Source: Escherichia coli
Lineage (GTDB): Bacteria; Pseudomonadota; Gammaproteobacteria; Enterobacterales; Enterobacteriaceae
Length of the DNA: 64,000 nucleotides
NCBI RefSeq assembly: GCF_965641715.1
Contig: NZ_OZ282453.1
Direction: 5' to 3' (one strand)
A program made the position numbers and the translations under genes. The notes under the pieces are model-generated. The model did no database searches. It was not told the DNA's origin and saw only the letters and a program-made list of their open reading frames with translations. Shown here in pieces: positions 5,981-50,197 of the stretch (positions are counted from its first letter, which is position 1; each line of letters opens with the position of its first letter).

Positions 5981-6005
5981 TAAAAATCCCGGTACTCGAC
6001 CGGGA
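5981..6005 (-). terminator. Rho-independent terminator downstream of delta/ogr-like gene
   Basis: stem tcccggtactcgaccggga followed by U-run on the minus-strand transcript. Confidence 0.5.
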
Positions 6006-6027
6006 TTACGTAGGCGTTTTTTTCTAA

Positions 6028-7597: not shown

Positions 7598-7631
7598 GAC
7601 TTCTCCTGTCGGGTTGGTTCGTTACGTCAAT

Positions 7632-7687
7632 TGTGTCGTGGCTGACACAAGCACACTATCGGTGCTCAGTGTGTGGTGGCTGGCACA
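7632..7687 (-). promoter_or_regulatory. Two TGT-N12-ACA dyads (Ogr/Delta-type activator sites) upstream of sid
   Basis: TGT(7632-7634)-N12-ACA(7647-7649) and TGT(7670-7672)-N12-ACA(7685-7687), 35-90 bp upstream of sid start. Confidence 0.45.
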
Positions 7688-7775
7688 ACGGGCGCTTGCG
7701 GTTATTCAGACGTGGCTATGAAAGCCAGCCAGATAAAAATGCCCACTGTTTCAGTCTGCTTTATGTCCCTGATGC

Positions 7776-7964
7776 GGTGGAACAGGTGAAACATGTGTTA
7801 CAGCTTTGTTTTATAAATCATTTATATACACTGCACCGGTGGAACATCGCGGGTAACAAGGTGGAACAGCGGATTGGCTGGCGTTACATCTGTTCCACCT
7901 CACTATTTCAGAAGGTGGAACAGGTTCAGCCCCTGTAAAATACGGTTGTTCCACCTGTTTCACC
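7776..7964. repeat. Iteron cluster: 6 perfect GGTGGAACA/TGTTCCACC 9-mers plus 2 variants in both orientations (crr/ori-like)
   Basis: copies at 7776, 7838, 7860, 7891(inv), 7914, 7947(inv); variants at 7785 and 7956; directly downstream of primase gene. Confidence 0.55.
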
Positions 7965-7998
7965 TGTTACCCTTAATAAATAAGACTCACGCAAAGCC

Positions 7999-10671: not shown

Positions 10672-11051
10672 ACTTCCCCCTGATACAACGTCACACCAGT
10701 ACTGCAGAAGTCATCAAAGGTCGCCGGAAGCGTGCGGTACATCTCCGCCATTACTTCACAGCCGCGCGCGGTCAGTACCGGCGGCGCGGTCAGCAGTGAC
10801 GGCTCCAGCATGTCAGTCAGCAGTGCCAGCGCGGCAGCGGCGCCCTGTGCTTCGCCGTACTCGTTAATCAGTGCGCACTCGATATGCAGCGCAATGGCCA
10901 TTTCAATACGCTCCACCGTCAGGCTGTGCGGACCATACTGATCACTGCCAGTTTCGTTCAGCATTTTCTGCCGCCATGCTGAAGCAATAGCCCGCCGGTA
11001 AAGCGCGGTTGTCATTTCTGCCGGGAAAATGGAAACCTGCGGCTGGTTCAT
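10668..11051 (-). CDS. hypothetical satellite protein
   Basis: ORF translationally coupled (4-nt overlap) to primase gene. Confidence 0.4.
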   Translation of the reverse strand: MNQPQVSIFPAEMTTALYRRAIASAWRQKMLNETGSDQYGPHSLTVERIEMAIALHIECALINEYGEAQGAAAALALLTDMLEPSLLTAPPVLTARGCEVMAEMYRTLPATFDDFCSTGVTLYQGEV

Positions 11052-11332
11052 CTGGCACCTCCTTCAATCAGTGCACAGCTGTGCGCAATATCCGTCAAAT
11101 CTGCCCGCAGGTACTCCATCAGCGCGGCGACACCATGCGCACAGCCAGCGTCCAGTGCTCCGGCCTGAGACGGGTATTCAGAAAAGAGAAGCTGGAGCAT
11201 GTCGCAGGCATTTCTTGCGCGGGTCAGCTTTCCGAAACTGTCCTCTGACAACCCATAGGCAAAAGCACCGGTATTGTGTTTTTCAGGCAAAGTGTGGCCC
11301 TGAGCACCGTTGTGCCCGTTTGAAATATTCAT
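11048..11332 (-). CDS. hypothetical satellite protein
   Basis: ORF coupled by 4-nt overlap to downstream gene. Confidence 0.35.
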   Translation of the reverse strand: MNISNGHNGAQGHTLPEKHNTGAFAYGLSEDSFGKLTRARNACDMLQLLFSEYPSQAGALDAGCAHGVAALMEYLRADLTDIAHSCALIEGGAR

Positions 11333-11363
11333 CGTGGATTACTCCGTTTTCAGCGGTATTTTG

Positions 11364-11724
11364 TCAGAGAAACTTTGAATAGTGACCGTCGTCAGGCTCA
11401 GCAGAACGCCGTATGCTACGCTCCCGCCAGCGGATAAATAGCACAGACGGATGCAGTGTCAGCGGGCCGGAACCACTACCGCCTGCAGGAGCTGGTGCAG
11501 GCTTAAAGAGCGGTACATCAAACAGGCGCGTATACCGCTGTTCAAACCATGCCAGAGGGCAGGAAGAAAGCTGGTTGTCGCTGTCATGACGTATCAGCAC
11601 TTCACAGCTGAATTCAGGATTAACCAGCGCCACAGAGGGCGAGGCTTCAATTAATCGGATAATCGTGACCGTCCAGCCACGTTCATGCTGCCAGCGTTCG
11701 CCGGGGTGCGGATAATTACGCATG
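11364..11724 (-). CDS. hypothetical satellite protein (start MRNYPHPG at 11724)
   Basis: start ATG overlaps stop of upstream small ORF (ATGCGTAA). Confidence 0.35.
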
Positions 11725-11892
11725 TTCACCTCCGCAGGGAATGCGCCCGGCAAAGCTCAGTACATAATCCGGGGCAAGTCTTCGCCGCGCTGACCGCTCG
11801 TTATCTGCGGTGATCCTTAACATCACAGGACGGGCATTGCGTTGACTGCGGTTGATCGCCGCAAATAACCAGGTACACTTCTGTTTAGCCAT
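11716..11892 (-). CDS. small protein, possibly host cell division inhibitor Icd-like (58 aa)
   Basis: hand-translated MAKQKCTWLFAAINRSQRNARPVMLRITADNERSARRRLAPDYVLSFAGRIPCGGEHA; below the 60-aa cutoff of the ORF track. Confidence 0.35.
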   Translation of the reverse strand: MAKQKCTWLFAAINRSQRNARPVMLRITADNERSARRRLAPDYVLSFAGRIPCGGEHA

Positions 11893-11983
11893 CTTCGTTA
11901 CCTCTTATAACGGTTGGTTAAATGCCCGATTTGTGTTCCCGCACAATCGGGCATTGCTTTTACAAGCGAACTATACTTACAAT

Positions 11984-12027
11984 GGTAATTACCATGTAGT
12001 CATCATATTCCAGGGTAATTACCATGT
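11984..12027. promoter_or_regulatory. Tandem operator-like repeats GGTAATTACCATGT (each containing palindrome GGTAATTACC), 30 bp apart
   Basis: copies at 11984-11997 and 12014-12027; second overlaps the ATG of the small + strand ORF. Confidence 0.45.
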
Positions 12028-12197
12028 CAACACCACAAGAGAAACGTTCCCCACCATTCCAAATGCGTCTTACCGACGATTTTAGGTTGCAACTCGAAAA
12101 AGAAATGCGCAAAGATGGAGATAGCGCGTTGGCAACTTGGATTAAAAGAATTTTACGTAAAGAACTACAATCACGCGGGATTGACCCTAAAGGTTAA
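12024..12197 (+). CDS. small ribbon-helix-helix-like DNA-binding protein (57 aa)
   Basis: hand-translated MSTPQEKRSPPFQMRLTDDFRLQLEKEMRKDGDSALATWIKRILRKELQSRGIDPKG; strand-helix-helix pattern; only + strand gene in the satellite. Confidence 0.4.
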   Translation: MSTPQEKRSPPFQMRLTDDFRLQLEKEMRKDGDSALATWIKRILRKELQSRGIDPKG

Positions 12198-12229
12198 TCA
12201 GTTAAATATTACTAACTATCAATTAAGGC

Positions 12230-12520
12230 TTAGGGAGTAGGTGATAATCTATTCCCTTTATTAATTGCTCTTGCCTTATTTCTCATCCCCTCAAACTGTT
12301 GACCTGAGTTTTCTTCAAACCCATCTCGCCACTTATAATAATCAGCAGCGCGCCATCGGGACATCCGACCTATTTTTATAGGTTTTGGAAAGCGATTCAG
12401 AGAAATCAATCGATAAATCCATTTGTCACTTAATAAACAATCGGAAGTAATAAACTTCATATCGATCAGAGAATCCATTGAAGGTCGTTGCAAAGTAGTA
12501 TTATCATGTTTAGATAACAT
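12230..12520 (-). CDS. alpA: AlpA-family phage transcriptional regulator
   Basis: KFITSDCLLSDKWIYRLISLNRFPKPIKIGRMSRWRAADYYKWRDGF matches AlpA-type HTH proteins. Confidence 0.7.
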   Translation of the reverse strand: MLSKHDNTTLQRPSMDSLIDMKFITSDCLLSDKWIYRLISLNRFPKPIKIGRMSRWRAADYYKWRDGFEENSGQQFEGMRNKARAINKGNRLSPTP

Positions 12521-12645
12521 TCATCATTCTCCGTTTATCTAAGTCTATTGGCTTCAACACGGAAAATTAAAACATAGGTTATAAATGAGAAAAATGTGAC
12601 TAATGAAAAAAATCCAAAATCATTAGTCACAATAATTGTTAACAT

Positions 12646-13470
12646 TTAGTTAAACTTAATGTTTTTCATGCAACTACGTAGCAAGCTAACAACAGTATCA
12701 TAGCTCAAAGGTGGTTCTCCGGTCTTAGGCCAGAACTCACTGGCATGTTGAAAAAGATAATCAGCTATCGCTGCTGGACTCTCTCTTCTTAGCCTCATAT
12801 CACGATGATAGAGCGAAATAATAGCCATGAGTATTTCAGTTCGAGGAACAGCATGTTTTTGTTTTTGCGCCTCAGATTGTGATTTATATTTATTGGCGTT
12901 TTTTATCCGTTTTTGTTCGCATAAGACTATATCAATGAATTTTTGAATCTGTACCTTTGTAATCCACAAAACCTCAAAAAGATAATAATTTTCTTTTTCA
13001 TCATAATTTACATAAAGAATTACCTTACAATTTATATTAGGCGTACCCGCCAGTAGAAAATGAATAGGCCAGGAATCCGGTTGCCCCTCATGCTTAACTA
13101 ACAGATCTTTATATTCATAATCAACAGCCCATAAACCGGATATAAAGCATCGAATAAAACCATTTTTATCAATTAAATTATTTTCATCAGGGATTCTTAT
13201 AGAGCTTAAGTCTGACAACATAATATTGCCATTTCTATCTCGTGGTAAATATTTCAGATTAGATAAGAACTCATCCAGTTGACCATCAATCTTCAAACCA
13301 CATGAAACATCATACTCATCATCATGGAATTCCATGCATAGCTCTACATCTCGTTCTCTGGCAAACCAGAGTATATCCTTTTCACTACAACCAATTTTTT
13401 CTGAAGCTTCATCCAACTGGTAGTAATCTCTGAGCAGAGAATCAGTATTATTAATTTTTAAAATATTCAT
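12646..13470 (-). CDS. hypothetical AT-rich protein of unknown function, translationally coupled to integrase
   Basis: 274 aa; ATGA start/stop overlap with int; low GC relative to flanks; no motif recognised. Confidence 0.4.
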   Translation of the reverse strand: MNILKINNTDSLLRDYYQLDEASEKIGCSEKDILWFARERDVELCMEFHDDEYDVSCGLKIDGQLDEFLSNLKYLPRDRNGNIMLSDLSSIRIPDENNLIDKNGFIRCFISGLWAVDYEYKDLLVKHEGQPDSWPIHFLLAGTPNINCKVILYVNYDEKENYYLFEVLWITKVQIQKFIDIVLCEQKRIKNANKYKSQSEAQKQKHAVPRTEILMAIISLYHRDMRLRRESPAAIADYLFQHASEFWPKTGEPPLSYDTVVSLLRSCMKNIKFN

Positions 13471-14726
13471 TTATGAGTACCAATTAGCTCAGATAAATAA
13501 TTAGCATACCATTGCATCATTTCTCTTCTCCCTTCGAGATATTGGGCATGGTTATAAATTCCACGAATAGAGTTTTTGTCCGAATGAGCAAGCTGGGTTT
13601 CAATCCAAGCGCTGTTAAATCCTTTCTCATGTAGAATTGTACTCATCGTATGCCTGAAACCATGTCCCGTAACACGCCCTGCATATCCAATACGTTTAAA
13701 CACCTGATTGATGCTTGCTTCACTCATAAATTTGCTAGGATCGTTGCGTCCAGGGAACATCAGCGGGTAGTTCCCAGTTAGTTCTTTCAAACTTTTGAGA
13801 TGGGATAATGCTTGTTTTGGTAACGGGACAATATGGCTCCTACGCATTTTCATACGTTCTTTTGGGATCTCCCACACCGCATTATCAAAATCCACCTCTC
13901 GCCACTCACCTGCTCGTAGTTCTCCAGTTCGTAGACCTGTCAGGATAAGTAAATGCGCCCCCAACAATACAATTGGACTTCCTGAATAAGAATTAAGGGC
14001 ATTAAAGAACTCCGGTAGTTCGTTGGCTTTGAGGAATGGATAGTGGACTGCTTCATGTCCTTGCATCGCACTGGCAAGATCCGGTGCCGGATTGTAGATT
14101 GCCCTACCCGTTACGATGGCATAGCGAAAAACTTCACCGCATCGCTGACGGACTTTCTTCGCTTTCTCCATAGCGCCTCGAGCTTCTATCAACCTCAGAA
14201 CTTCAAGCAGTTCAAGGGGCTGAATATCAGCTATAGGTCTGTGCCCAATATGCGGAAAAATGTCTTTCTCAAATGCCTCAATGATGTCGGAAGCATAGCC
14301 CTCAGACCATTTGGATGATTTCATTTTGTGCCACTCTAACGCCACTTCTCTGAATGGGTTAAGTGTCTCAATCGCTGCGTTTAAAGCCTGCTTTTTGGCT
14401 TTTTTGACTTCGCCGGGATCTTCACCTGCTGCGAGTAGTTTCTTTGCGTCTTCTCGTTTTTGTCTGGCATCAGCAAGTGTGACTGTTGGATAAACACCAA
14501 AGGACAATCGTTTCTCTTTACCAGCAAAACGGTATTTCATACGCCAGTAACGCGAGCCATTAGGTTCGACCTGAAGGTATAGGCCACCTCCATCAAACAG
14601 CTTATAGCTCTTCTCTTTTCCTTTCGCAGCTTCAACCTTGCGGGCATTCAGCATCATTGGGGGCACATTTCCTAGACCGAACAGAACATGCCCCTGATTG
14701 TGCCCCCAACCGCGTGTTGATTTCAA
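13467..14726 (-). CDS. int: P4-type tyrosine integrase (probable start at MLNARKV, 14654)
   Basis: KEKSYKLFDGGGLYLQVEPNGSRYWRMKYRFAGKEK N-terminus and C-terminal HGFRHT...Y catalytic region; adjacent to tRNA-Thr. Confidence 0.9.
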   Translation of the reverse strand: MKSTRGWGHNQGHVLFGLGNVPPMMLNARKVEAAKGKEKSYKLFDGGGLYLQVEPNGSRYWRMKYRFAGKEKRLSFGVYPTVTLADARQKREDAKKLLAAGEDPGEVKKAKKQALNAAIETLNPFREVALEWHKMKSSKWSEGYASDIIEAFEKDIFPHIGHRPIADIQPLELLEVLRLIEARGAMEKAKKVRQRCGEVFRYAIVTGRAIYNPAPDLASAMQGHEAVHYPFLKANELPEFFNALNSYSGSPIVLLGAHLLILTGLRTGELRAGEWREVDFDNAVWEIPKERMKMRRSHIVPLPKQALSHLKSLKELTGNYPLMFPGRNDPSKFMSEASINQVFKRIGYAGRVTGHGFRHTMSTILHEKGFNSAWIETQLAHSDKNSIRGIYNHAQYLEGRREMMQWYANYLSELIGTHK

Positions 14727-14820
14727 GAGACAAGGGTTGACCTCAAACGTATGAAAACAACGTAATATATATGTTTTTAAATGATTTTGTTGATGTGGGT
14801 TGACTTGGGAAAACTAGGTG

Positions 14821-14838
14821 ATGGTGCCGATAATAGGA
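14821..14838. repeat. attL core: 18 bp at thrW 3' end, repeated at 3194..3211
   Basis: exact 18-mer match. Confidence 0.6.
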
Positions 14839-14897
14839 GTCGAACCTACGACCTTCGCATTACGAATGCGCTGCTCTACCAACTGAGCTATATCGGC
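14822..14897 (-). tRNA. thrW: tRNA-Thr (anticodon CGU)
   Basis: reverse complement reads GCCGATATAGCTCAGTTGGTAGAGCAGCGCATTCGTAATGCGAAGGTCGTAGGTTCGACTCCTATTATCGGCACCA. Confidence 0.9.
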
Positions 14898-15011
14898 CCT
14901 GAAAGGACATGTTCACGAACGTGAATCACGGTGGACAAGGGTAAAACTAACCGGGCGATGCGTCAATGGCCTTGTGAATCAAATGGCTACTTTTGCATCA
15001 CCCGGTTTTAT

Positions 15012-23641: not shown

Positions 23642-24094
23642 TTAATGTTGCGGTTTATATCGCATATAAAAATTAGTAAACCAAGCTCCACGGCATTCAA
23701 CGCGCTGCTGCTTAACTGTCTGAAAACCATAACGTTCAAAAAAGGGTTTTGCGGTTATGCTGGCGTCCACCGTAAGTTCGGATTCAGACTTAATCAAAGG
23801 TTTTAACAAAGCGCTGGCAACCCCACGGCGGGTGTATTCAGGGTCAACAAATAACATATCGATATAATGTTCAATGCGGGAAATAAAACCAACCGGTTGT
23901 GCATTAATGACTGCAACCCGCACTTGTGATTTCGCGAGTTTCTCCTTCCAGCGAGATTCGTCAATCTGCGCCCAGGCGGCAATTTGTTGTGGTGAATAAT
24001 GCTGACTGGCGGTCATCATAACCGCTCTAATGAAAATAGCGCATAGTTGCTGAAAATCGCCAGGCTGATAGTTTCTTATTTGTATGTTATTCAT
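23642..24094 (-). CDS. yafP: GNAT-family acetyltransferase
   Basis: MNNIQIRNYQPGDFQQLCAIF start matches YafP; ORF track adds spurious upstream codons. Confidence 0.85.
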   Translation of the reverse strand: MNNIQIRNYQPGDFQQLCAIFIRAVMMTASQHYSPQQIAAWAQIDESRWKEKLAKSQVRVAVINAQPVGFISRIEHYIDMLFVDPEYTRRGVASALLKPLIKSESELTVDASITAKPFFERYGFQTVKQQRVECRGAWFTNFYMRYKPQH

Positions 24095-24125
24095 AATGTA
24101 AGTTTTGTTTTGAATACCCGCATCC

Positions 24126-24419
24126 TTATTCCTTAAAGTCATTGAAATCATCATCCGTCATATCATTAAGATATTGTTCAGCGCGGCGTGTAATTTCCTC
24201 TAATCTTGCAGCACTTGGACGGAAGCGCGCCTTTATGGGCTTTTTCTCCTCTTGTTCAGCAAGCATGTCCATTAACGCTTCGAATGCGCTGGCACTTAAG
24301 AGATATCCTGCGGGGCGATTATTAGAAAGAACCGCAACCGGTTGATCAATAAAGTATTTAGCTGGGTTTTTACGTAACTCAGTAATATTGACCGATTTTT
24401 CAGCGAGAATTCGATGCAT
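24126..24419 (-). CDS. yafN: antitoxin YafN (Phd/YefM family)
   Basis: 97 aa match to YafN. Confidence 0.9.
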   Translation of the reverse strand: MHRILAEKSVNITELRKNPAKYFIDQPVAVLSNNRPAGYLLSASAFEALMDMLAEQEEKKPIKARFRPSAARLEEITRRAEQYLNDMTDDDFNDFKE

Positions 24420-25596: not shown

Positions 25597-26300
25597 TTAG
25601 CGCGTTCGCTGCGAAAGCACCTGCTGCTTATCCAGCTTTTGCACCAGCGGCTGCACCACTTTATCCCCATGCTGACCAAAGTATTGATACAGCGTATCGG
25701 ACGCACTTTTGGTCAGCACCATAATCTCAATACGCCGATTGCCCGCGCTTTGCGGATTTTTGGCATCCAGCAGCATCTGGTCAGCCATTGCGCTTACCTG
25801 CATCACTTTATCTTCCGGCATTCCGGCCTCTTCCAGCACCCGACGAGCCGAAAGCGCGCGATCGCCCGAAAGGTTCCAGTTGTTGTAGATATTGTTTTTG
25901 TAGGCCATCGCATCGGTATGCCCGGTAATAATAATTTTGTTATCGAGCGAGTCGAACACTGGCGCGAGCTCCACCAGCAGCGTTTTAAAGAACGGCATAA
26001 TCTGCGCGCTGCCGCGTTCAAACATATTGCGGTTCTGGTCGTCTTTAATCAGCACGCGTAATCCCTGCGGGACAATCTCCATCTCCAGATTCGCTTCCAT
26101 ATGCGCATCACGGGCAATGGTGTTGATACTGGTTGCCAACTCGCCAAGCTCGGTGGCGGATTTCTTCTTCAGCAGCGCCGTTTTCTCATTCACATCACGC
26201 GCTTTTTTCTCCGTCTCTTCCGGCACCGCCACGGTGGCAGGTTTTGGCGGATGAGACGGGCTGATTTTATTTAACGGCGACAGCCCACCACCGTTAAAAA
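25597..26300 (-). pseudogene. lafU: lateral flagellar motor protein LafU (MotB-like) 3' fragment
   Basis: OmpA-like C-terminus with NRRIEIMVL; 5' end replaced at junction ~26300-26330; upper boundary approximate. Confidence 0.6.
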
Positions 26301-26326
26301 TCGACTGCCCGTGCAGCGCGGCGATA

Positions 26327-28066
26327 ATGCTTTCACGCTCGGATTTACTGACGCTGTTGACAATCAACTTTATCGTCGTCACCAAAGGGGCCGAGCGTAT
26401 TTCCGAGGTTTCTGCCCGCTTTACCCTGGACGCGATGCCCGGCAAACAGATGGCGATTGACGCTGACCTTAACGCCGGGTTGATCAACCAGGCGCAGGCG
26501 CAAACCCGGCGTAAAGATGTCGCCAGCGAGGCCGATTTCTACGGCGCGATGGACGGGGCGTCGAAGTTTGTGCGCGGGGATGCCATCGCCGGGATGATGA
26601 TTCTGGCGATCAACCTGATCGGTGGTGTCTGTATCGGGATCTTCAAATACAACCTGAGCGCTGACGCTGCCTTCCAGCAATATGTGCTGATGACCATCGG
26701 CGACGGGCTGGTGGCGCAGATCCCTTCCCTGCTGCTCTCCACCGCGGCGGCGATTATCGTCACCCGCGTCAGCGACAACGGCGATATCGCCCATGACGTA
26801 CGCCACCAACTGCTGGCAAGCCCGTCGGTGCTCTACACCGCTACCGGAATTATGTTTGTGCTGGCGGTAGTGCCGGGGATGCCCCACCTGCCGTTTTTGC
26901 TGTTCAGCGCCCTGCTTGGCTTTACCGGCTGGCGGATGAGCAAACGCCCGCAGGCGGCGGAGGCGGAAGAGAAAAGCCTCGAAACGCTGACCCGTACCAT
27001 CACCGAAACCAGCGAGCAACAGGTCAGTTGGGAGACTATTCCGCTGATCGAGCCTATCAGTTTAAGCCTCGGCTACAAGCTGGTGGCGCTGGTGGACAAA
27101 GCCCAGGGCAACCCGCTCACCCAGCGTATTCGCGGCGTGCGACAGGTGATATCCGACGGCAACGGCGTGCTGCTGCCGGAGATCCGCATTCGGGAAAACT
27201 TCCGCCTTAAGCCCAGTCAGTACGCTATTTTCATCAACGGCATTAAGGCCGATGAAGCAGATATTCCGGCGGATAAACTGATGGCCCTGCCCTCCAGCGA
27301 AACCTACGGCGAGATAGACGGCGTGCTGGGGAACGACCCGGCGTACGGGATGCCGGTGACCTGGATCCAGCCCGCGCAGAAGGCGAAGGCACTAAATATG
27401 GGGTATCAGGTGATCGACAGCGCCAGCGTGATTGCCACCCATGTGAATAAGATTGTACGCAGCTATATTCCTGATTTGTTTAACTATGACGACATCACAC
27501 AGTTGCATAACCGTTTGTCGTCGATGGCACCGCGCCTGGCGGAGGATTTAAGCGCGGCGCTGAATTACAGCCAGTTGCTGAAAGTGTACCGCACACTACT
27601 GACCGAAGGCGTTTCCCTGCGCGACATCGTCACCATCGCCACCGTGCTGGTCGCCAGTAGCGCGGTGACCAAAGATCACATTCTGCTGGCGGCCGATGTG
27701 CGCCTGGCGCTGCGGCGCAGCATTACTCATCCGTTCGTTCGCAAACAGGAGCTGACGGTGTATACGCTGAATAATGAGCTGGAAAATCTGCTCACCAACG
27801 TAGTGAATCAGGCGCAACAGGGCGGCAAAGTGATGCTCGACAGCGTGCCGGTCGACCCGAATATGCTCAACCAGTTCCAGAGCACGATGCCGCAGGTGAA
27901 GGAGCAGATGAAAGCGGCGGGGAAAGATCCGGTGCTGCTGGTGCCGCCGCAGTTGCGTCCTTTGCTGGCGCGCTATGCAAGGTTGTTTGCGCCGGGGCTG
28001 CATGTGCTGTCGTATAACGAAGTGCCGGACGAGCTGGAGTTGAAGATTATGGGGGCCTTGAGTTGA
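26327..28066 (+). pseudogene. lfhA: lateral flagellar export protein LfhA (FlhA-like), promoterless 5'-truncated fragment
   Basis: begins inside the FlhA motif FTLDAMPGKQMAIDADLNAGLI..FYGAMDGASKFVRGDAIAG; lacks N-terminal TM segments. Confidence 0.65.
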
Positions 28067-28096
28067 TTGAGGAGGCTATATAAGGGCCAGGACCGT

Positions 28097-28185
28097 CCCC
28101 TCGCCCCTTTGGGGAGAGGGTTAGGGTGAGGGGAAAGTGCGCGCTGAGCCCCTCACCCCGGCCCTCTCCCCAAAGGGGCGAGGGA
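28097..28185. repeat. REP-type imperfect palindrome (two ~36-bp inverted arms)
   Basis: ccctcgcccctttggggagagggttagggtgagggg ... cccctcaccccggccctctccccaaaggggcgaggg. Confidence 0.6.
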
Positions 28186-28227
28186 GAAAATCGTGTACGA
28201 CTTTAGCTTTTTCGCGGTATTGCCGTC

Positions 28228-28977
28228 CTACAAAATCGTCTCTTCCGTCAAAATCCGCCGCGCGCCTAAAAAATGATCCTGCCAGAAAGGTTCAGCTAAC
28301 CGACTTACCCGAATGGTTTCCCCGGTGCGCGGTGACTCAATAAACTGACCGTCGCCCAGATACACCCCCATATGGTCGGCAATCTCGCGGCTGTGGATAT
28401 GGAAAAACAGCAAATCTCCCCGGCGCAGGTCGTTATTCGCCACAATCGTTGCCCGATGGTAGTGATACATCTCATTAGCCGTACGCGGGAGCTTCGCCTC
28501 GAGGATCTTGTTGTAGGCATAAAAAACCAACCCGCTACAGTCAAAGCCTTTATCAGGCCGCGTGCCGCCCCAGACGTAAGGCTTGCCAAGCTGCTGCTCC
28601 AGGCGGTGAATCGCCACTTCGGTGATGTTATGCAGATGGTCGCTGCTTAAAAAGTGGTTATTTTCCGCCAGCGCCTGCCAGCGTCTGTCACTCGCCTTGA
28701 GCGGCGCAGGAAACCATTCTGGATGCTGTTTTATCTGTTCGCGGTTGTGCTGGCGCAGCGCCCTTCTGCTTTCGGCATTGCCTTCCACAATATAGCTGGC
28801 CTGCTTTTTCAGATGGGTTTGGTACTGTTTTAATAAACGCGCACGGTTTTGCATCCGCTGGCGGGCGGCGTAGCTGAAAGAGATATGTGATGTGGTGGCG
28901 CAGGCAAATGAAGAAAACGGCAAGCAAAGCAACAGTAATCCCGACAACACAAAAGAGGGAATCGACGGCAAAGACAT
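28228..28977 (-). CDS. yafL: NlpC/P60-family lipoprotein endopeptidase
   Basis: lipoprotein signal and C-terminal NlpC/P60 region (YVWGG...DCSGLV...H). Confidence 0.85.
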   Translation of the reverse strand: MSLPSIPSFVLSGLLLLCLPFSSFACATTSHISFSYAARQRMQNRARLLKQYQTHLKKQASYIVEGNAESRRALRQHNREQIKQHPEWFPAPLKASDRRWQALAENNHFLSSDHLHNITEVAIHRLEQQLGKPYVWGGTRPDKGFDCSGLVFYAYNKILEAKLPRTANEMYHYHRATIVANNDLRRGDLLFFHIHSREIADHMGVYLGDGQFIESPRTGETIRVSRLAEPFWQDHFLGARRILTEETIL

Positions 28978-29154
28978 TCTCAATAATGGCTGGTCATGCA
29001 TTGATGTTGCAGTGTATCCTGGCCCGTACCTGAACAAACTTAATAAACCATTATTATAAAATTAATAAATATATTTCAGTTTATTATGTAAAAACATCCG
29101 TTTATTAAATTACTCATGGATTGTCGCTGTTGCTCATTTGAGCTACAATTCAAG

Positions 29155-29170
29155 CTGAATAAATATACAG
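29155..29170 (+). promoter_or_regulatory. LexA (SOS) box upstream of dinJ
   Basis: CTGaataaatataCAG, 17 nt upstream of dinJ ATG. Confidence 0.6.
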
Positions 29171-29186
29171 CACAGGAGATACCCCA

Positions 29187-29447
29187 ATGGCTGCTAACGC
29201 GTTTGTTCGCGCCCGAATCGATGAAGATCTGAAGAATCAGGCGGCGGACGTACTGGCCGGGATGGGGCTGACCATCTCTGACCTGGTTCGCATAACCCTC
29301 ACAAAGGTCGCGCGTGAAAAGGCATTGCCGTTTGATTTACGCGAGCCTAATCAATTAACCATTCAATCAATCAAAAACAGCGAAGCTGGCGTTGATGTTC
29401 ATAAGGCCAAAGACGCCGATGATTTATTTGATAAATTAGGAATTTAA
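29187..29447 (+). CDS. dinJ: antitoxin DinJ (RelB family)
   Basis: 86 aa match to DinJ. Confidence 0.9.
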   Translation: MAANAFVRARIDEDLKNQAADVLAGMGLTISDLVRITLTKVAREKALPFDLREPNQLTIQSIKNSEAGVDVHKAKDADDLFDKLGI

Positions 29448-29449
29448 AT

Positions 29450-29730
29450 ATGATTCAAAGGGATATTGAATACTCGGACAATTTTCAAAGGATGTAAAAC
29501 TTGCACAAAAGCGTCATAAGGATATGAATAAATTGAAATATCTTATGACGCTTCTTATCAATAATACTTTACCGCTTCCAGCTGTTTATAAAGACCACCC
29601 GCTGCAAGGTTCATGGAAAGGTTATCGCGATGCTCATGTCGAACCGGACTGGCTCCTGATTTACAAACTTACCGATAAACTTTTACGATTTGAGAGAACT
29701 GGAACTCACGCGGCGCTCTTTGGGTAAAGC
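29450..29730 (+). pseudogene. yafQ: toxin YafQ, frameshifted near the 5' end
   Basis: ATG at 29450 gives MIQRDIEYSDNFQRM then TAA; the YafQ body (MNKLKYLMTLL...) continues from 29524 in a different frame. Confidence 0.65.
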
Positions 29731-29882
29731 CCGCTTCCGATGAAATTTGTAAACCCTGCGCCGACAGGCTTGCGTAAAACTCTTTTGGTGATAATGTGAG
29801 CCTTCCAAATCCAGACTATTCCGATTTGGGATCCATTTTGCCGTCCTGGCGTGTGTAACCGTTTTATCAAGGAATAAGCAGT

Positions 29883-30623
29883 ATGCGTAAAATCGCATTA
29901 ATTCTTGCGATGTTGTTGATCCCGTGCGTTTCGTTTGCCGGTTTGCTGGGCAGCAGTAGCTCGACCACGCCAGTGAGCAAAGAGTATAAGCAGCAGTTGA
30001 TGGGATCCCCTGTCTACATCCAGATCTTCAAGGAAGAACGTACGCTCGATCTCTACGTCAAAATGGGCGAGCAATATCAACTGCTCGACAGCTATAAAAT
30101 CTGTAAATATTCCGGCGGCTTAGGGCCAAAACAGCGTCAGGGCGATTTCAAAAGCCCGGAAGGGTTTTATAGCGTCCAGCGTAATCAGTTAAAACCAGAC
30201 AGCCGTTACTACAAAGCGATTAATATTGGTTTCCCCAATGCCTATGACCGTGCGCATGGTTATGAAGGGAAATACCTGATGATCCACGGCGATTGTGTTT
30301 CCATCGGCTGCTACGCGATGACCAATCAGGGCATTGACGAGATTTTCCAGTTCGTTACTGGCGCACTGGTATTTGGTCAGCCGAGCGTGCAAGTGAGCAT
30401 TTACCCGTTCCGCATGACCGACGCTAATATGAAGCGCCACAAATATTCCAACTTTAAGGACTTCTGGGAGCAACTGAAGCCGGGTTACGACTACTTTGAG
30501 CAAACCCGTAAGCCACCGACCGTTTCTGTGGTCAATGGTCGTTACGTGGTCAGCAAGCCGTTAAGCCACGAAGTTGTGCAACCACAGCTGGCATCAAACT
30601 ACACGCTCCCCGAGGCAAAATAA
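29883..30623 (+). CDS. yafK: L,D-transpeptidase-like periplasmic protein
   Basis: signal peptide plus YkuD-like domain. Confidence 0.85.
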
Positions 30624-31361
30624 GCGCCATTCGCCTGGCATAATTTTTTGCCAGGTTTCATTGCCCGTCAGCGGCTGTGTCGCAATCACCGTGACCACAT
30701 CATTCGGTGTGGTCTGCGAGCTGAAGTCGATTTCCACATCCTGATCCAGCAACGTTGCCACGCCAAACGGCGCGCGGCGGGTGATCCAGTGTAAATTAGT
30801 CGAGCAATACGCCATTACATAGCGCCCGTCCGAAAGCAGCATGTTGAAAACGCCCTTCGCCCGCAGTTCATCCGCCAGTGAGGCGATATATTTAAACACT
30901 GCCGCCATGTTGCCCGGCGTGCGCGGGTAACGCTGCGTTAATTTATGCAGCAGCCAGCAAAAGGCTTTTTCGCTGTCGGTTTCACCGACCGGGCGGAAGT
31001 TGCCGGTTTCCAGTGATTTGTAGCCCGTCAGTTGCCCGTTATGGGCATAAGTCCAGTTACGCCCCCATAACTCGCGGGTAAACGGGTGAGTATTTTCCAG
31101 CGCCACCTCGCCCCGATTAGCCTGGCGAATATGAGCCACCACCGAACAAGATTTTATCGGGTAGTCCTGGACCAGTTTGGCGATAGGTGAGTTAAAGCTG
31201 GGTTGCGGATCTTTAAATGTGCGACAGCCTTTACCTTCGTAAAAGGTAATGCCCCAGCCATCTTTATGTGGCCCGGTTCCACCACCACGCTGCACCAGAC
31301 CGGTGAAACTAAAGCAGATATCGGTAGGGACGTTGGCGCTCATCCCGAGCAATTCGCACAT
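30594..31361 (-). CDS. yafJ: class II glutamine amidotransferase
   Basis: [12 protein letters not shown] start with N-terminal catalytic Cys. Confidence 0.85.
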
Positions 31362-31384
31362 GGGTAACCTCCACAACAGCGGGA

Positions 31385-31565
31385 GCGCATGGCCCCCGGC
31401 GAAGATTGATTTAAGAATTTTCAGGTCGGATGCGGCGTGAACGCATTATTCGGCCTACGGTTCGCGTACAGATTTGTAGGCATGATAAGACGCGTCAGCG
31501 TCGCATCAGGCATCAGCGCACAAATGCCGGATGCGGCGTAAACGTCTTATCCGGCCTACGCCAGA
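31385..31565. repeat. REP/BIME cluster (about 3 REP units in alternating orientation)
   Basis: gccggatgcggcgtgaacgc..., gtaggcatgataagacgcgtcagcgtcgcatcaggcat, gccggatgcggcgtaaacgtcttatccggcctacg. Confidence 0.8.
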
Positions 31566-31566
31566 C

Positions 31567-32145
31567 TTACTTAACCATCTCTTTTTCAATCAACTGGATC
31601 AGGATATGGATCACTTTAATGTGAATCTCCTGAATGCGGTCGGCATAACCAAAGTGCGGTACGCGAATTTCGATATCCGCCGTGCCAGCCATTTTGCCGC
31701 CGTCTTTACCGGTCAGGGTGATCACTTTCATTCCCTTCTCACGCGCCGCTGCGATCGCTTTGATCACGTTTGCAGAGTTACCGGAGGTGGAGATCCCCAG
31801 CAGTACATCGCCTTCGCGACCTACCGCTTCAACGTAACGGGAGAAAATATCATTGAAACCGAAATCGTTACCGACGCATGAAATATGACTAACGTCAGAA
31901 ATAGCAATCGCCGGGTAGCCCGGACGGTTTTCACGGTAGCGACCGGTCAACTCTTCGGCAAAGTGCATAGCGTCGCAATGGGAACCGCCGTTGCCGCAGG
32001 AAAGCACTTTGCCACCGGCTTTAAAGCTGTCTGCTAACAGGACCGCCGCGCGCTGAATGGCGTGAATATTGGCGTCATCTTTTAAAAAGTTAGCCAGCGT
32101 TTCCGCCGCTTCGTTCAGTTCGTTACGAATAAGATCCTGGTACAT
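31567..32145 (-). CDS. gmhA: phosphoheptose isomerase
   Basis: [20 protein letters not shown] start, SIS domain. Confidence 0.95.
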
Positions 32146-32384
32146 GAGGATATCCTTCAGCATAAATGTAATAGACAAAATGCAGTGTACCGGATACCGC
32201 CAAAAGCGAGAAGTACGGGCAGGTGCTATGACCAGGACTTTTTGACCTGAAGTGCGGATAAAAACAGCAACAATGTGAGCTTTGTTGTAATTATATTGTA
32301 AACACATTGCTAAATGTTTTTACATCCACTACAACCATATCATCACAAGTGGTCAGACCTCCTACAAGTAAGGGGCTTTTCGTT

Positions 32385-34829
32385 ATGATGATTTTGAGTA
32401 TTCTCGCTACGGTTGTCCTGCTCGGCGCGTTGTTCTATCACCGCGTGAGCTTATTTATCAGCAGTCTGATTTTGCTCGCCTGGACAGCCGCCCTCGGCGT
32501 TGCTGGTCTGTGGTCGGCGTGGGTACTGGTGCCTCTGGCCATTATCCTCGTGCCATTTAACTTTGCGCCTATGCGTAAGTCGATGATTTCCGCGCCGGTA
32601 TTTCGCGGTTTCCGTAAGGTGATGCCGCCGATGTCGCGCACTGAGAAAGAAGCGATTGATGCGGGCACCACCTGGTGGGAGGGCGACTTGTTCCAGGGCA
32701 AGCCGGACTGGAAAAAGCTGCATAACTATCCGCAGCCGCGCCTGACGGCTGAAGAGCAAGCGTTTCTCGACGGCCCGGTAGAAGAAGCCTGCCGGATGGC
32801 GAATGATTTCCAGATCACCCATGAACTGGCGGATCTGCCGCCGGAGTTGTGGGCGTACCTTAAAGAGCATCGCTTCTTCGCGATGATTATCAAAAAAGAG
32901 TACGGCGGACTGGAGTTCTCAGCTTATGCCCAGTCTCGCGTGCTGCAAAAACTCTCCGGCGTGAGCGGGATCCTGGCGATTACCGTCGGCGTGCCGAACT
33001 CATTAGGCCCGGGCGAGCTGCTGCAACATTACGGCACTGACGAGCAGAAAGATCACTATCTGCCGCGTCTGGCGCGTGGTCAGGAAATCCCTTGCTTTGC
33101 ACTAACCAGCCCGGAAGCGGGTTCCGATGCGGGCGCGATTCCGGACACCGGGATTGTCTGCATGGGCGAATGGCAGGGCCAGCAGGTGCTGGGGATGCGT
33201 CTGACCTGGAACAAACGCTACATTACGCTGGCACCGATTGCGACCGTGCTGGGTCTGGCGTTTAAACTCTCCGACCCGGAAAAATTACTCGGCGGTGCAG
33301 AAGATTTAGGCATTACCTGTGCGCTGATCCCGACCACCACGCCGGGCGTGGAAATTGGTCGTCGCCACTTCCCGCTGAACGTACCGTTCCAGAACGGACC
33401 GACGCGCGGTAAAGATGTCTTCGTGCCGATCGATTACATCATCGGCGGGCCGAAAATGGCCGGGCAAGGCTGGCGGATGCTGGTGGAGTGCCTCTCGGTA
33501 GGCCGCGGCATCACACTGCCTTCCAACTCAACCGGCGGCGTGAAATCGGTAGCGCTGGCAACCGGCGCGTATGCTCACATTCGCCGTCAGTTCAAAATCT
33601 CTATCGGTAAGATGGAAGGGATTGAAGAGCCGCTGGCGCGTATTGCCGGGAACGCTTATGTAATGGATGCTGCGGCATCGCTGATTACCTACGGCATAAT
33701 GCTCGGCGAAAAACCTGCCGTGCTGTCGGCTATCGTTAAGTATCACTGTACCCACCGCGGGCAGCAGTCGATTATTGATGCGATGGATATTACCGGCGGT
33801 AAAGGCATTATGCTCGGGCAAAGCAACTTCCTGGCGCGAGCTTACCAGGGCGCACCGATTGCCATCACCGTTGAAGGGGCCAACATTTTGACCCGCAGCA
33901 TGATGATCTTCGGGCAGGGAGCGATTCGTTGCCATCCGTATGTGCTGGAAGAGATGGAAGCGGCGAAGAACAATGACGTCAACGCGTTCGATAAACTGTT
34001 GTTCAAACATATCGGTCACGTCGGTAGCAACAAAGTTCGCAGCTTCTGGCTGGGCCTGACGCGCGGTTTAACCAGCAGCACGCCAACCGGCGATGCCACT
34101 AAACGCTACTATCAGCACCTGAACCGCCTGAGCGCCAACCTCGCCCTGCTTTCTGATGTCTCGATGGCAGTGCTGGGCGGCAGCCTGAAACGTCGTGAGC
34201 GTATCTCGGCACGTCTGGGGGATATTTTAAGCCAGCTCTACCTCGCCTCCGCCGTTCTGAAACGTTATGACGACGAAGGCCGTAATGAAGCCGACCTGCC
34301 GCTGGTGCACTGGGGCGTACAGGATGCGCTGTATCAGGCAGAACAGGCGATGGACGATTTACTGCAAAACTTCCCGAACCGCGTGGTTGCCGGGCTGCTG
34401 AATGTGGTGATCTTCCCGACCGGACGTCATTATCTGGCACCGTCTGACAAGCTGGATCATAAGGTGGCGAAGATTTTACAAGTGCCGAACGCCACTCGCT
34501 CACGTATTGGTCGGGGTCAGTACCTGACGCCGAGCGAGCATAATCCGGTTGGTTTACTGGAAGAGGCGTTGGTGGATGTGATTGCCGCCGACCCGATTCA
34601 TCAGCGGATCTGTAAAGAGCTGGGTAAAAATCTGCCATTTACCCGTCTGGATGAACTGGCGCACAACGCGCTGGCGAAGGGGCTGATTGATAAAGATGAA
34701 GCCGCTATTCTGGTGAAAGCGGAAGAAAGCCGTCTGCGCAGTATTAACGTTGATGACTTTGATCCGGAAGAGCTGGCGACGAAGCCGGTAAAGTTGCCGG
34801 AGAAAGTGCGGAAAGTTGAAGCCGCGTAA
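32385..34829 (+). CDS. fadE: acyl-CoA dehydrogenase FadE
   Basis: [14 protein letters not shown] start; 814 aa. Confidence 0.95.
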
Positions 34830-43082: not shown

Positions 43083-43859
43083 TCAATAAGGTTGCTTTAC
43101 CAAGCTTCCATCGATATTGATGGAAAATTCATTAGACCTAATATGAACAGAATGTTGCTCATCATCTTTATCTAATATTTGATTAACAAAAAAAAACGTA
43201 TTTTTATCAAATTCATAATTATCACATCCCTCTCCACTAAATGATATAGCTCTAAAATCATATTCATTACATGAGTATCTTTTCATCAAAATAGAGAGGA
43301 ATGTTTCATTAATTGATTTTAATACAAACCATTTTCTCCTAACAAGTTTGTAGTTTAATGTTTTTATATGATAATTATTTAAACTGGGGAGAAATGAATG
43401 CATATCATTCAATTTTACATCAAAAGATATTTTTTTACCTGCCGTAATTTCCACCCATCGGCTCAAATTCAAATCAAGCTCAAAGGGACAAAAGCCTCCT
43501 AGATAGTCTAAGCTAATATTTCCTGATGTAATCAAGAATTCGTCATCACACAAAGCATCAAATACATCTCCATTTCCTTTTTGGAAGTTCTTTGGATAAT
43601 ATATTCTGGGGAGAAAATACGATTTAGTACTACTGTTATAAAAAGTTATAGTAGCTAAAATATTTTCAGCATGTGGCTTAACCACCAATTTAACAACAAC
43701 ATCATTTGTTAATTCATTACTTATATTTTCCTCTGGCGCTAAATTATGGCTAAGATAAATAATTGGTTTCCCATTGTCACTTCTTCGTTCAAAACCGAAT
43801 CTGTATTTTTTTACAAAAAGATTCTCATTATCTATTGCAATTGCAATAGATAATGGCAA
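43083..43859 (-). CDS. hypothetical protein, candidate immunity for upstream HExxH effector
   Basis: AT-rich 258-aa ORF directly downstream of putative effector; no signal peptide seen. Confidence 0.35.
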   Translation of the reverse strand: MPLSIAIAIDNENLFVKKYRFGFERRSDNGKPIIYLSHNLAPEENISNELTNDVVVKLVVKPHAENILATITFYNSSTKSYFLPRIYYPKNFQKGNGDVFDALCDDEFLITSGNISLDYLGGFCPFELDLNLSRWVEITAGKKISFDVKLNDMHSFLPSLNNYHIKTLNYKLVRRKWFVLKSINETFLSILMKRYSCNEYDFRAISFSGEGCDNYEFDKNTFFFVNQILDKDDEQHSVHIRSNEFSINIDGSLVKQPY

Positions 43860-43924
43860 AAAACAAAGAAAAAAAAACCATCAGTACAACATAATTTAGA
43901 TTATAGAAAGCCAACCTCTTCATC

Positions 43925-47114: not shown

Positions 47115-47132
47115 AAATACCTCTCAGACATA

Positions 47133-47417
47133 TCAGCCTATATTTACCGTACCGCCACCAATGACCACACCACCACAGTCGATGGCATCACCGGTTCTGG
47201 CGGCGGGCAGGCCGTCAATAAAGACGGTTGAAGAACCTCTGGCGATTTTACGGGGATGAGGTGGATGCTTCGGTTTAGCATGCGGCGTCAGCGGATCTCC
47301 CTGGCGAGCAGCAGGTAATCCATCAATAAATACCGTGGATGAAGCCGCAATGATGACTGTCTCACGGTAGCCATCATGCTGAGTACCTTTGTCGTTTAAT
47401 CTGGCAGCTAAAGGCAT
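47133..47417 (-). CDS. PAAR-domain protein
   Basis: two PAAR motifs (STVFIDGLPAARQGD / STVFIDGLPAARTGDAIDCGG). Confidence 0.8.
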   Translation of the reverse strand: MPLAARLNDKGTQHDGYRETVIIAASSTVFIDGLPAARQGDPLTPHAKPKHPPHPRKIARGSSTVFIDGLPAARTGDAIDCGGVVIGGGTVNIG

Positions 47418-47527
47418 AATTCCTCCTGTTCAGAATATCAGCGACAAAAAATTTAAAAAACGGTAAGGTGCTTAACTCAGCAATAATCACCTTACCGGAC
47501 ATCCTGATTTGTAGCCCAACAGGTTAA

Positions 47528-48538
47528 TCAAGTAACAGGGATAAACTGACCATCAATCAGCGAAAATACCGGAGCGTAATACCCCATACGCTCTTCACCA
47601 CTTTCATCTGTAAAACGGTAAGTCAGTGGGGAATACGTTGGCATTGATTTATTATATAATTGCACCATACGCCCATTATTCATAACCCGGACGGCATAAT
47701 CGTTCCACCTGATAGGCAGTATTTTGGCTTTTCCACCCTCAAGGTTATCTTTCGGAAAGTGGGAGAGTAATATGTCATCCTCAGAGTCACCGGTTGTGGC
47801 TGACCATGCCTTCAGCGCCTCTGTGTTATATAACTTAAGACGTGCTCTGTCCCCGCTGTTAATAATTGTTGCCATTTCGGTATAGGTGGCTTTTAACTTC
47901 CGTAGCTGCTCGTCGCTTCCGGTATAGGGGGTTGCCCGCGTCCAGGCCCATTCAGGAAGCCCCGTCACCGTGACTTTTTGTGTAAACTGATACACCTTCA
48001 TCCCTTTCGGAAAATAGGTTTCATCAAAATAATCTGGATCTATAAATCCTGGCTCCGCCTGCTCTGCCAGGATCTCTTTCCTGATAACGGGATGCACGCT
48101 GTCTGACCGGGCTTCAGGTATGCCCTGCTGGTTGATGGTCACTTTTATCGAAGAAAGCAGGGTTTCTTCCTGTTTAATAAAACGAACCAAATCCAGGCTG
48201 CACCCTGCTTTTTGGAAAAAACGCCCCCGTTCTTCCGTACTGGCAGGCTTGTCAGAAAACCATCCTAACGCCCCGATTTCCAGACTGATTTCATTTTCTC
48301 CATTCGCCATCAGCATCATGGCATTGGTGCTGGATATGGCCCCGGTGGAATCACCATTCTCTCGCCATGCGTTCATTCGGTTACTGAAGCCGAGGACACC
48401 GTTGGTTTTGATGGCACAATATGATTCCTCAATATTAAACTTACTGCGGATTTTTTGTGGATTTTCACCCGAGTACAATCCTGCTCCCATAATACCTCCT
48501 GACAGTAAAATAACCGATATTAAATGTTTTACCTTCAT
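47528..48538 (-). CDS. secreted protein of unknown function, candidate periplasmic immunity protein
   Basis: N-terminal signal peptide; follows putative effector. Confidence 0.4.
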   Translation of the reverse strand: MKVKHLISVILLSGGIMGAGLYSGENPQKIRSKFNIEESYCAIKTNGVLGFSNRMNAWRENGDSTGAISSTNAMMLMANGENEISLEIGALGWFSDKPASTEERGRFFQKAGCSLDLVRFIKQEETLLSSIKVTINQQGIPEARSDSVHPVIRKEILAEQAEPGFIDPDYFDETYFPKGMKVYQFTQKVTVTGLPEWAWTRATPYTGSDEQLRKLKATYTEMATIINSGDRARLKLYNTEALKAWSATTGDSEDDILLSHFPKDNLEGGKAKILPIRWNDYAVRVMNNGRMVQLYNKSMPTYSPLTYRFTDESGEERMGYYAPVFSLIDGQFIPVT

Positions 48539-48604
48539 AATTATTTTCTCTTAAAAGGAAAAGACTCTCATTATATTGAGTGATTTTAATTGCTGTAATA
48601 TCAC

Positions 48605-50176: not shown

Positions 50177-50197
50177 ATAATCTATCCGTTTGTCTTT

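What the first reader, a model, noticed from the sequence alone, without database searches (positions are those of the whole stretch)
29450..29730. yafQ toxin gene is frameshifted while dinJ antitoxin and its SOS box are intact
From the ATG at 29450 the frame reads MIQRDIEYSDNFQRM and stops; the recognisable YafQ body resumes at 29524 in another frame. From memory of the K-12 sequence this is a single-base loss near codon 10, removing about 25 N-terminal residues if translation restarts internally. This leaves an antitoxin with a degraded toxin.
Basis: partly seen in the sequence, partly recalled or inferred. Interest (0 to 1): 0.5.

Follow-up and report, generated by a model that had tools for sequence, protein, structure and literature searches.

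The report
Frameshifted yafQ toxin, intact dinJ
An E. coli toxin gene (yafQ) has lost one base and is dead while its partner antitoxin gene (dinJ) is intact. The mutation is real, but this kind of decay is common at this locus and is not a new biological feature.

Summary
Compared with K-12 and the closest intact alleles, yafQ (29450-29727, +) lacks one G of the GGG run spanning codons 9/10. The native frame stops after 15 codons (MIQRDIEYSDNFQRM*). The YafQ body is readable only from Met26 (29524).

dinJ (29187-29447), its promoter region and the LexA-box palindrome (29155-29170) are intact and match K-12.

It is not an assembly error. Thirteen contigs from NCBI draft assemblies encode the same remnant. 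Three of them, read directly, match the window at 99.99-100% and carry the deletion. The window also shows zero indels over 11.8 kb against a near-identical comparator.

The allele is lineage-specific. It is absent from 5,426 complete E. coli genomes, GTDB representatives and JGI metagenomes. The phenomenon, however, is ordinary. At least five other independent yafQ lesions exist, each beside an intact 86-aa dinJ. About 20% of sampled dinJ-yafQ-bearing complete genomes have a PGAP-annotated yafQ pseudogene.

A Met26 restart product would lack helix α1, whose basic patches are required for ribosome binding, so this is most likely a null toxin beside an orphan antitoxin.

The same lineage has also deleted the neighbouring toxin yafO while keeping yafN. 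Interest is low.

The parts
29121..29149 (+). dinJ promoter-like site (TTGTCG-17-TACAAT)
   Evidence: Consensus scan. The sequence is identical to K-12. Promoter function is inferred, not shown.
29155..29170 (+). LexA-box palindrome CTG-N10-CAG (CTGAATAAATATACAG) overlapping the dinJ promoter
   Evidence: Read directly and identical to K-12. LexA binding to the dinJ promoter is reported, but SOS induction has not been observed (PMC4996492).
29187..29447 (+). dinJ antitoxin gene, intact (86 aa)
   Evidence: ORF list. NCBIfam TIGR02384 RelB/DinJ scores 83.7 bits against a cutoff of 45.65. One common substitution (I69V) relative to K-12.
29450..29727 (+). yafQ toxin pseudogene (278 nt instead of 279)
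   Evidence: Alignments. tblastn with A30 YafQ matches only residues 10-92, in another frame. The conceptually repaired protein scores 120 bits on TIGR00053 and E=3.7e-60 to PDB 4ML2 YafQ.
29476..29477 (+). Site of the 1-bp deletion (GG here, GGG in intact alleles; codons 9/10)
   Evidence: It is the only indel in the HSP covering window 28,223-33,447 against A30.
29450..29497 (+). 15-codon ORF left at the native start (MIQRDIEYSDNFQRM*)
   Evidence: Translation.
29524..29727 (+). 67-aa remnant ORF from Met26. It encodes H50, H63, D67, H87 and F91 but lacks residues 1-25.
   Evidence: TIGR00053 scores 91.5 bits over profile positions 25-91 of 92. The upstream AAGGA ends 1 nt before the ATG, which is poor Shine-Dalgarno spacing (inference from general knowledge).

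Best explanation
This is the chromosomal dinJ-yafQ type II toxin-antitoxin operon of E. coli, carrying a genuine, lineage-specific, recent loss-of-function allele of the toxin.

Shown:
- One G is deleted from the GGG run at codons 9/10.
- Ribosomes starting at the native ATG (2 nt after the dinJ stop) terminate after 15 codons.
- The only start codon in the YafQ frame is Met26.

Inferred:
- Little or no 67-aa product is made, because the Shine-Dalgarno-like AAGGA sits only 1 nt from that ATG.
- Any product would lack residues 1-25, including the helix α1 basic patches K14/K17 and K21/R22/K24. It could therefore not dock in the ribosomal A site or cleave mRNA, although the catalytic residues are still encoded.
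- dinJ, its promoter and LexA box are unchanged, so DinJ should still be made and still repress its own promoter. This locus does not use the toxin for conditional cooperativity.

The net state is a toxin-null locus with an orphan antitoxin. Toxin-first decay is the expected order, because losing the antitoxin first is costly. dinJ is most simply intact because the lesion is young.
For: The lesion and reading frames are shown.

The deletion is real:
- The 85-aa remnant product is on 13 contigs in NCBI draft assemblies.
- L027 and L028 match the window at 12,257/12,258 nt. L025 matches at 5,750/5,750 and L029 at 6,628/6,628. All carry the deletion.
- The window has 0 gaps in 11,831 nt against LR-64-2, despite 626 homopolymer runs of 3 nt or more.
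- Only two uncompensated indels occur in about 32 kb against A30.

The deletion is recent. Apart from the missing G, yafQ is identical to the intact L73 allele.

Loss of function is supported by experiment on K-12 YafQ. K14A/K17A and K21A/R22A/K24A mutants do not bind the 70S ribosome at all and partly restore growth. Helix α1 is the ribosome-specificity element (PMC4652777).

Autoregulation does not depend on the toxin. There is no conditional cooperativity, and DinJ represses its own locus (PMC4996492).

The state is recurrent. Independent yafQ lesions, each with an intact 86-aa dinJ ORF where dinJ was read, are:
- delT at codon 35
- delAT at codons 7-8 (O157:H7)
- a 9-bp deletion plus K48stop
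- Q20stop
A further lesion, an IS insertion, lies at a contig end, so its dinJ was not seen. About 12 of 59 systematically sampled genomes are affected.
Against: No expression or toxicity data exist for this allele. The remnant ORF still passes the YafQ family cutoff and encodes all catalytic residues, so residual activity cannot be formally excluded. Reinitiation after the nearby stop codon is mechanistically possible. Secondary-structure limits for residues 1-25 rest on the literature; I did not model the truncated protein.
Confidence: 0.9

Rival explanations
1. Sequencing or assembly error: the genome really has GGG and an intact yafQ, and one G was dropped from a homopolymer.
For: The site is a short homopolymer. 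The window's other frame-breaking indel (A8 to A9 at 43,868) is also homopolymeric and is private among the 12 complete genomes that hold that segment. No complete genome has the yafQ deletion.
Against: The identical allele is present on 13 contigs of separate NCBI assemblies. Four contigs were read directly and three cover the site; these match at 99.99-100%. At least one is a 23.5-kb contig, so it cannot be the source of the 64-kb window. The window has zero gaps in 11.8 kb against a 99.9%-identical comparator, across 626 runs of 3 nt or more.
Confidence: 0.02
2. The gene still yields an active toxin. This could happen by reinitiation at Met26 (67 aa). It could also happen by a rare -1 slip of tRNA-Phe on the T-TTT of AAT-TTT-CAA, which would restore the frame and give a 92-aa G10D/Q11N protein.
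For: The remnant keeps H50, H63, D67, H87 and F91 and scores above the TIGR00053 cutoff. The stop codon lies 27 nt before Met26. A four-T run lies between the deletion and the stop codon.
Against: Alanine substitution of either basic patch in helix α1 abolishes 70S binding (PMC4652777), and the Met26 product lacks the whole helix. The Shine-Dalgarno spacing is 1 nt. There is no stimulatory element for slippage, and an unstimulated P-site slip is very inefficient (general knowledge). Any trace product would be swamped by co-expressed DinJ.
Confidence: 0.04
3. Selected state rather than neutral decay. Toxin loss was favoured and DinJ is kept for a job of its own: regulation of cspE/RpoS, or neutralising YafQ homologues on incoming plasmids (anti-addiction). 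This does not exclude the best explanation. It adds a claim about selection.
For: The same lineage also lacks yafO but keeps yafN. All the independent lesions seen hit yafQ and none hit dinJ. dinJ is still intact in lineage-wide yafQ-null clades such as O157:H7. dinJ-yafQ copies occur on plasmids (12-15 places). DinJ represses cspE (PMC4996492). Orphan antitoxins have been proposed as anti-addiction modules (PMC7354431).
Against: The asymmetry is expected anyway, because antitoxin-first loss is costly. The alleles were found partly by searching with yafQ, which is an ascertainment bias. The lesion is young, with no further changes in yafQ, so intact dinJ needs no selection. About 39% of complete genomes lack the whole module, and the two complete genomes that share the yafO deletion have no dinJ at all. 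dinJ is too short and too little diverged for a dN/dS test here.
Confidence: 0.12

Closest known systems
E. coli K-12 dinJ-yafQ type II toxin-antitoxin operon (YafQ structures 4ML2, 4ML0, 4Q2U)
   Same: Same chromosomal site between yafL and dpaA(yafK). The promoter and LexA box are identical. DinJ differs by one residue. yafQ differs by two substitutions plus the deletion.
   Different: The toxin reading frame is broken at codon 10, so no full-length YafQ can be made.
Other natural yafQ pseudogene alleles in E. coli: the O157:H7 delAT at codons 7-8, the XH992/1517k/AJ5 delT at codon 35, the WCHEC050613-type 9-bp deletion plus K48stop, Q20stop, and an IS insertion
   Same: The state is the same: dead yafQ beside an intact 86-aa dinJ. 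RefSeq annotates these as 'frameshifted' or 'internal stop'.
   Different: The lesion is different and independent (delG at codons 9/10). It is found only in a lineage represented by draft assemblies.
Degraded toxin-antitoxin loci and orphan antitoxins in general, for example the parE pseudogene with intact parD in Caulobacter and the frameshifted yacB toxin in Shigella flexneri (PMC7354431)
   Same: The toxin is inactivated by a frameshift or stop while the antitoxin ORF is retained.
   Different: Nothing of substance. This is one more example in a different family and locus.

Membership tests
RelB/DinJ antitoxin family (DinJ) | The protein matches the family profile above the curated cutoff over its full length. 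| tested here: met
   TIGR02384 scores 83.7 bits against a cutoff of 45.65, covering residues 1-84. The protein is 85/86 identical to K-12 DinJ.
YafQ family (RelE/ParE superfamily) ribosome-dependent mRNA interferase | The sequence matches the YafQ profile and solved YafQ structures. | tested here: met
   The repaired translation scores 120 bits on TIGR00053 (cutoff 87.25). The 67-aa remnant scores 91.5 bits over profile positions 25-91. The match to 4ML2_A has E=3.7e-60.
YafQ family (RelE/ParE superfamily) ribosome-dependent mRNA interferase | An uninterrupted ORF encodes the whole toxin. | tested here: not met
   The 1-bp deletion gives a stop after 15 codons. It is a pseudogene of the family, not a functional member.
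YafQ family (RelE/ParE superfamily) ribosome-dependent mRNA interferase | The catalytic residues H50, H63, D67, H87 and F91 are present. | tested here: met
   All five are encoded in the 29524-29727 ORF (translation, K-12 numbering). Their roles are from PMC4652777.
YafQ family (RelE/ParE superfamily) ribosome-dependent mRNA interferase | The helix α1 basic patches (K14/K17, K21/R22/K24) needed for 70S binding are present in a translatable product. | tested here: not met
   These codons lie between the frameshift and Met26. No ORF with a start codon includes them in frame. The binding requirement is from PMC4652777.
Type II toxin-antitoxin operon | The antitoxin gene lies immediately upstream of the toxin gene, on the same strand, under a shared autoregulated promoter. 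| tested here: met
   The dinJ stop is at 29445-29447 and the yafQ ATG at 29450. A promoter-like site and palindrome lie upstream and are identical to K-12.
Type II toxin-antitoxin operon | The toxin inhibits growth and the antitoxin neutralises it. | not testable with these tools
   This needs expression experiments. The prediction is that this allele has no toxicity.
LexA (SOS) regulon member | A LexA box (CTG-N10-CAG) at the promoter that is bound by LexA. | tested here: inconclusive
   The palindrome is present and identical to the K-12 site. Binding is reported for K-12, but SOS induction has not been seen (PMC4996492). It was not tested for this strain.

The most novel reading that the evidence does not exclude
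The lineage has shed both toxins of the two neighbouring SOS-associated modules while keeping both antitoxins: yafO by a clean 376-bp deletion and yafQ by frameshift. This could reflect selection for 'disarmed' loci, in which DinJ and YafN persist as regulators or as anti-addiction factors against plasmid- or phage-borne homologues, rather than two unrelated decay events.
Probability: 0.1. Interest if true: 0.35.

Novelty: already known. Interest (0 to 1): 0.1.

Why it matters
It matters little on its own. It is one more natural null allele of a dispensable chromosomal toxin.

Its modest value is practical:
- Strains of this lineage should be scored as YafQ-negative and YafO-negative in persistence or stress studies, and in toxin-antitoxin inventories.
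- Gene callers produce misleading 67-aa or 85-aa 'YafQ_toxin' proteins from such alleles.
- At least six independent yafQ lesions were seen (five with an intact dinJ read beside them), and roughly 20% of module-bearing complete genomes are affected. This supports the view that the chromosomal dinJ-yafQ toxin is under weak or no purifying selection in E. coli.

Tried and rejected
- Exact-allele scans of GTDB species representatives and JGI metagenomes found nothing. Neither did the 5,426 complete E. coli genomes.
- Looking up the 67-aa remnant found other lesions (Q20stop, an IS insertion, a +1 insertion in a generally broken assembly, and contig ends) but not this one.
- The allele was found only by looking up the exact neighbouring YafL protein, and then the 85-aa product that the collection's gene caller makes from it. 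The same product with Ile as first residue is not on record.
- A strict 20-mer LexA consensus with up to 3 mismatches gave no hit in the window. The dinJ box is a weak site, so I relied on identity to the K-12 site instead.
- A 61-nt A-rich query around 43,868 was masked by the low-complexity filter and was repeated with 221 nt.
- The Armalyte 2012 mutagenesis paper (PMC3294823) is not held.
- Phase variation was considered and rejected, because a 3-nt G run is not a contingency tract.
- An ancient pseudogene was considered and rejected, because yafQ has no further changes relative to the intact L73 allele.
- I did not run structure prediction on the truncated protein. It would not measure stability, and the published mutagenesis is more direct.

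Full report
**1. The observation**

On the + strand, dinJ runs 29187-29447 (86 aa). Two bases later, ATG 29450 opens a frame that reads MIQRDIEYSDNFQRM and stops at TAA 29495-29497. The frame one base back reads ...GQFSKDVKLAQKRHKDMNKLKY... to the normal YafQ C-terminus ...THAALFG. Its first start codon is ATG 29524, which gives a 67-aa ORF.

Alignment with K-12 MG1655, strain L73 and strain A30 shows one missing G in TCG-GGA at codons 9/10. The window has GG at 29476-29477 and the references have GGG. ATG 29524 is Met26, so a restart would lose 25 residues. The upstream region is identical to K-12, including a promoter-like TTGTCG-17-TACAAT (29121-29149) and the LexA palindrome CTGAATAAATATACAG (29155-29170). 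DinJ differs from K-12 only by I69V, a variant shared with the other non-K-12 alleles compared.

**2. Real mutation or assembly error?**

The first results left error open.
- None of the 3,325 complete E. coli genomes that carry dinJ-yafQ has this deletion. Every full-length hit to a 67-nt probe has a one-base gap.
- Exact-pattern scans of GTDB species representatives and JGI metagenomes found nothing.
- The window's only other frame-breaking indel against its best comparator, A8 to A9 at 43,868, is also homopolymeric. It is private among the 12 complete genomes with that segment.

Three lines of evidence then settled it.
- The assembly is clean. Only two uncompensated indels occur in about 32 kb of collinear alignment to A30. 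Against a 99.9%-identical comparator (LR-64-2), window 3100-14930 has 13 substitutions and no gap in 11,831 nt, although that stretch holds 626 homopolymer runs of 3 nt or more.
- Looking up contigs that encode exactly the window's YafL allele returned GCA_013072045.1. Its 23.5-kb contig is 100% identical to window 25,728-31,477 and includes the deletion. The window is 64 kb, so this is a different assembly.
- That assembly's gene call for the remnant is an 85-aa product starting right after the out-of-frame TGA, and it is on record for 13 contigs. L027 and L028 match the window at 12,257/12,258 nt and L029 at 6,628/6,628. All carry the deletion.

The allele is therefore real and fixed in a lineage that is known from draft genomes but is not among the complete genomes.

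**3. What it does to the gene**

The native initiation site now yields a 15-residue peptide. No ATG, GTG or TTG lies in the YafQ frame before Met26. The AAGGA upstream of Met26 ends one base before the ATG. From general knowledge of Shine-Dalgarno spacing this is unfavourable, so efficient restart is unlikely (inference).

If a 67-aa product were made it would keep H50, H63, D67, H87 and F91 but lack residues 1-25. Maehigashi et al. (PMC4652777) showed that YafQ K14A/K17A and K21A/R22A/K24A do not bind the 70S ribosome at all and partly restore growth. They identify helix α1 as the element that confers ribosome specificity. Removing the whole helix should therefore abolish ribosome-dependent mRNA cleavage (inference from those data).

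DinJ should be unaffected. The locus is reported not to use conditional cooperativity, and DinJ represses its own promoter. LexA binds that promoter, although SOS induction has not been observed (PMC4996492).

**4. Age**

Apart from the missing G, the window's yafQ is identical to the intact allele of strain L73. No secondary mutations have accumulated, so the event is recent. Intact dinJ needs no special explanation.

**5. How ordinary this is**

The module is present in 3,325 of 5,426 complete genomes. An evenly spaced sample of 59 full-length yafQ hits broke down as follows.

| Span in the record | Rows | Meaning |
|---|---|---|
| 279 nt | 45 | Normal length |
| 277 nt | 5 | O157:H7 type, delAT at codons 7-8 |
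| 278 nt | 3 | delT at codon 35 |
| 270 nt | 4 | 9-bp deletion plus K48stop |
| 274 nt | 2 | 6-bp deletion that removes the ATG |

Representatives of the 277-, 278- and 270-nt classes are annotated by PGAP as 'frameshifted' or 'internal stop' pseudogenes, each next to an intact 86-aa dinJ. The start-deletion allele is annotated with an upstream start. That is about 12 of 59, or roughly 20%. The sampling error is wide and the collection over-represents O157:H7.

Draft and metagenomic contigs add a Q20stop allele and an insertion whose end looks like IS1 (from memory of the IS1 terminus) at about codon 16. With the window's allele there are at least six independent disruptive lesions in yafQ and none in dinJ. 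This is the expected toxin-first order of decay. Reviews already describe degraded toxins with orphan antitoxins as common (PMC7354431).

**6. Rivals**

Sequencing error is refuted as far as it can be without reads (section 2). Residual toxin activity, by Met26 restart or by a rare -1 slip on the T-TTT in AAT-TTT-CAA that would restore the frame, cannot be excluded formally. It is unlikely for the reasons in section 3.

Selection for disarmed loci is conceivable, with DinJ kept as a regulator or an anti-addiction factor.
- In favour: the same lineage has also lost yafO but kept yafN. dinJ-yafQ copies occur on plasmids. DinJ represses cspE.
- Against: the data do not require it. About 39% of complete genomes lack the whole module. 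The two complete genomes that share the yafO deletion lack dinJ too. dinJ is too short and too similar between strains for a selection test here.

**7. Verdict**

The feature is a genuine but ordinary pseudogene allele at a locus where such alleles are frequent and already annotated. Interest is low.

Noticed in passing
window 24095-24128 (- strand), between yafN (24129-24419) and yafP (23645-24094): The yafO toxin of the dinB-yafN-yafO-yafP operon is deleted. About 376 bp are missing relative to A30, leaving only its first 8 codons fused just upstream of the yafP start. YafN is intact (NF007300, 196.7 bits). The junction occurs in only 2 of 5,426 complete genomes (GF43 and MEI003). These are about 96% identical to the window nearby and lack dinJ-yafQ altogether. 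The junction is also present in the draft assemblies that share the yafQ deletion.
   Followed up: yes
window 43868 (gene on - strand, about 43086-43923): An A9 run, where A30 and 11 other complete genomes are one or two bases shorter, splits a 279-aa hypothetical protein next to an M35 peptidase in the T6SS effector region. It is private among complete genomes. I did not check it in the draft assemblies.
   Followed up: partly
window 3211-14821: An 11.6-kb P4-like satellite lies beside tRNA-Thr. It carries an integrase, AlpA, Icd-like, TOPRIM/DUF927 primase, Psu and Ogr/Delta genes. Its cargo is a ShosT/ShosA (Shosha) defence pair at 3392-5696 (PADLOC ShosT 314 bits, ShosA 300 bits). The island is absent from A30 and 99.9% identical, with no gaps, to strain LR-64-2.
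   Followed up: partly
window 28061-28223, between the flhA remnant and yafL: The REP-associated transposase gene rayT, present here in K-12, L73 and A30, is absent from the window and from GF43. MEI003 has a hicAB toxin-antitoxin pair at the same spot. This intergenic site seems to be a small variable hotspot.
   Followed up: no
window 29040-29742 (whole dinJ-yafQ module): The module is a presence/absence polymorphism. It is present in 3,325 of 5,426 complete genomes. Where it is absent, the match starts about 15 nt after the yafQ stop, and unrelated sequence of about 160 bp fills the gap (GF43). Between 12 and 15 copies are on plasmids.
   Followed up: partly
L009 (GCA_020421745.1 contig) and L021 (CFSAN027343): Two further yafQ variants were seen. 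One is an insertion whose terminus looks like IS1, at about codon 16, on a contig shared by 4 samples. The other is a 6-bp deletion that removes the yafQ ATG; PGAP rescues it with an upstream start overlapping dinJ (95 aa). Its function is untested.
   Followed up: partly
window 47123-51530 and 51091-52995: An extra 4.4-kb segment, not collinear with A30, lies between two vgrG copies. The second VgrG is about 83% identical to the first. This suggests an additional or rearranged T6SS effector cassette.
   Followed up: no
window 53987: A one-base length difference from A30 lies beside a C8 run in the intergenic region upstream of hcp. Exactly one complete genome (ET350) shares it, so it is probably a real slippage polymorphism.
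   Followed up: partly
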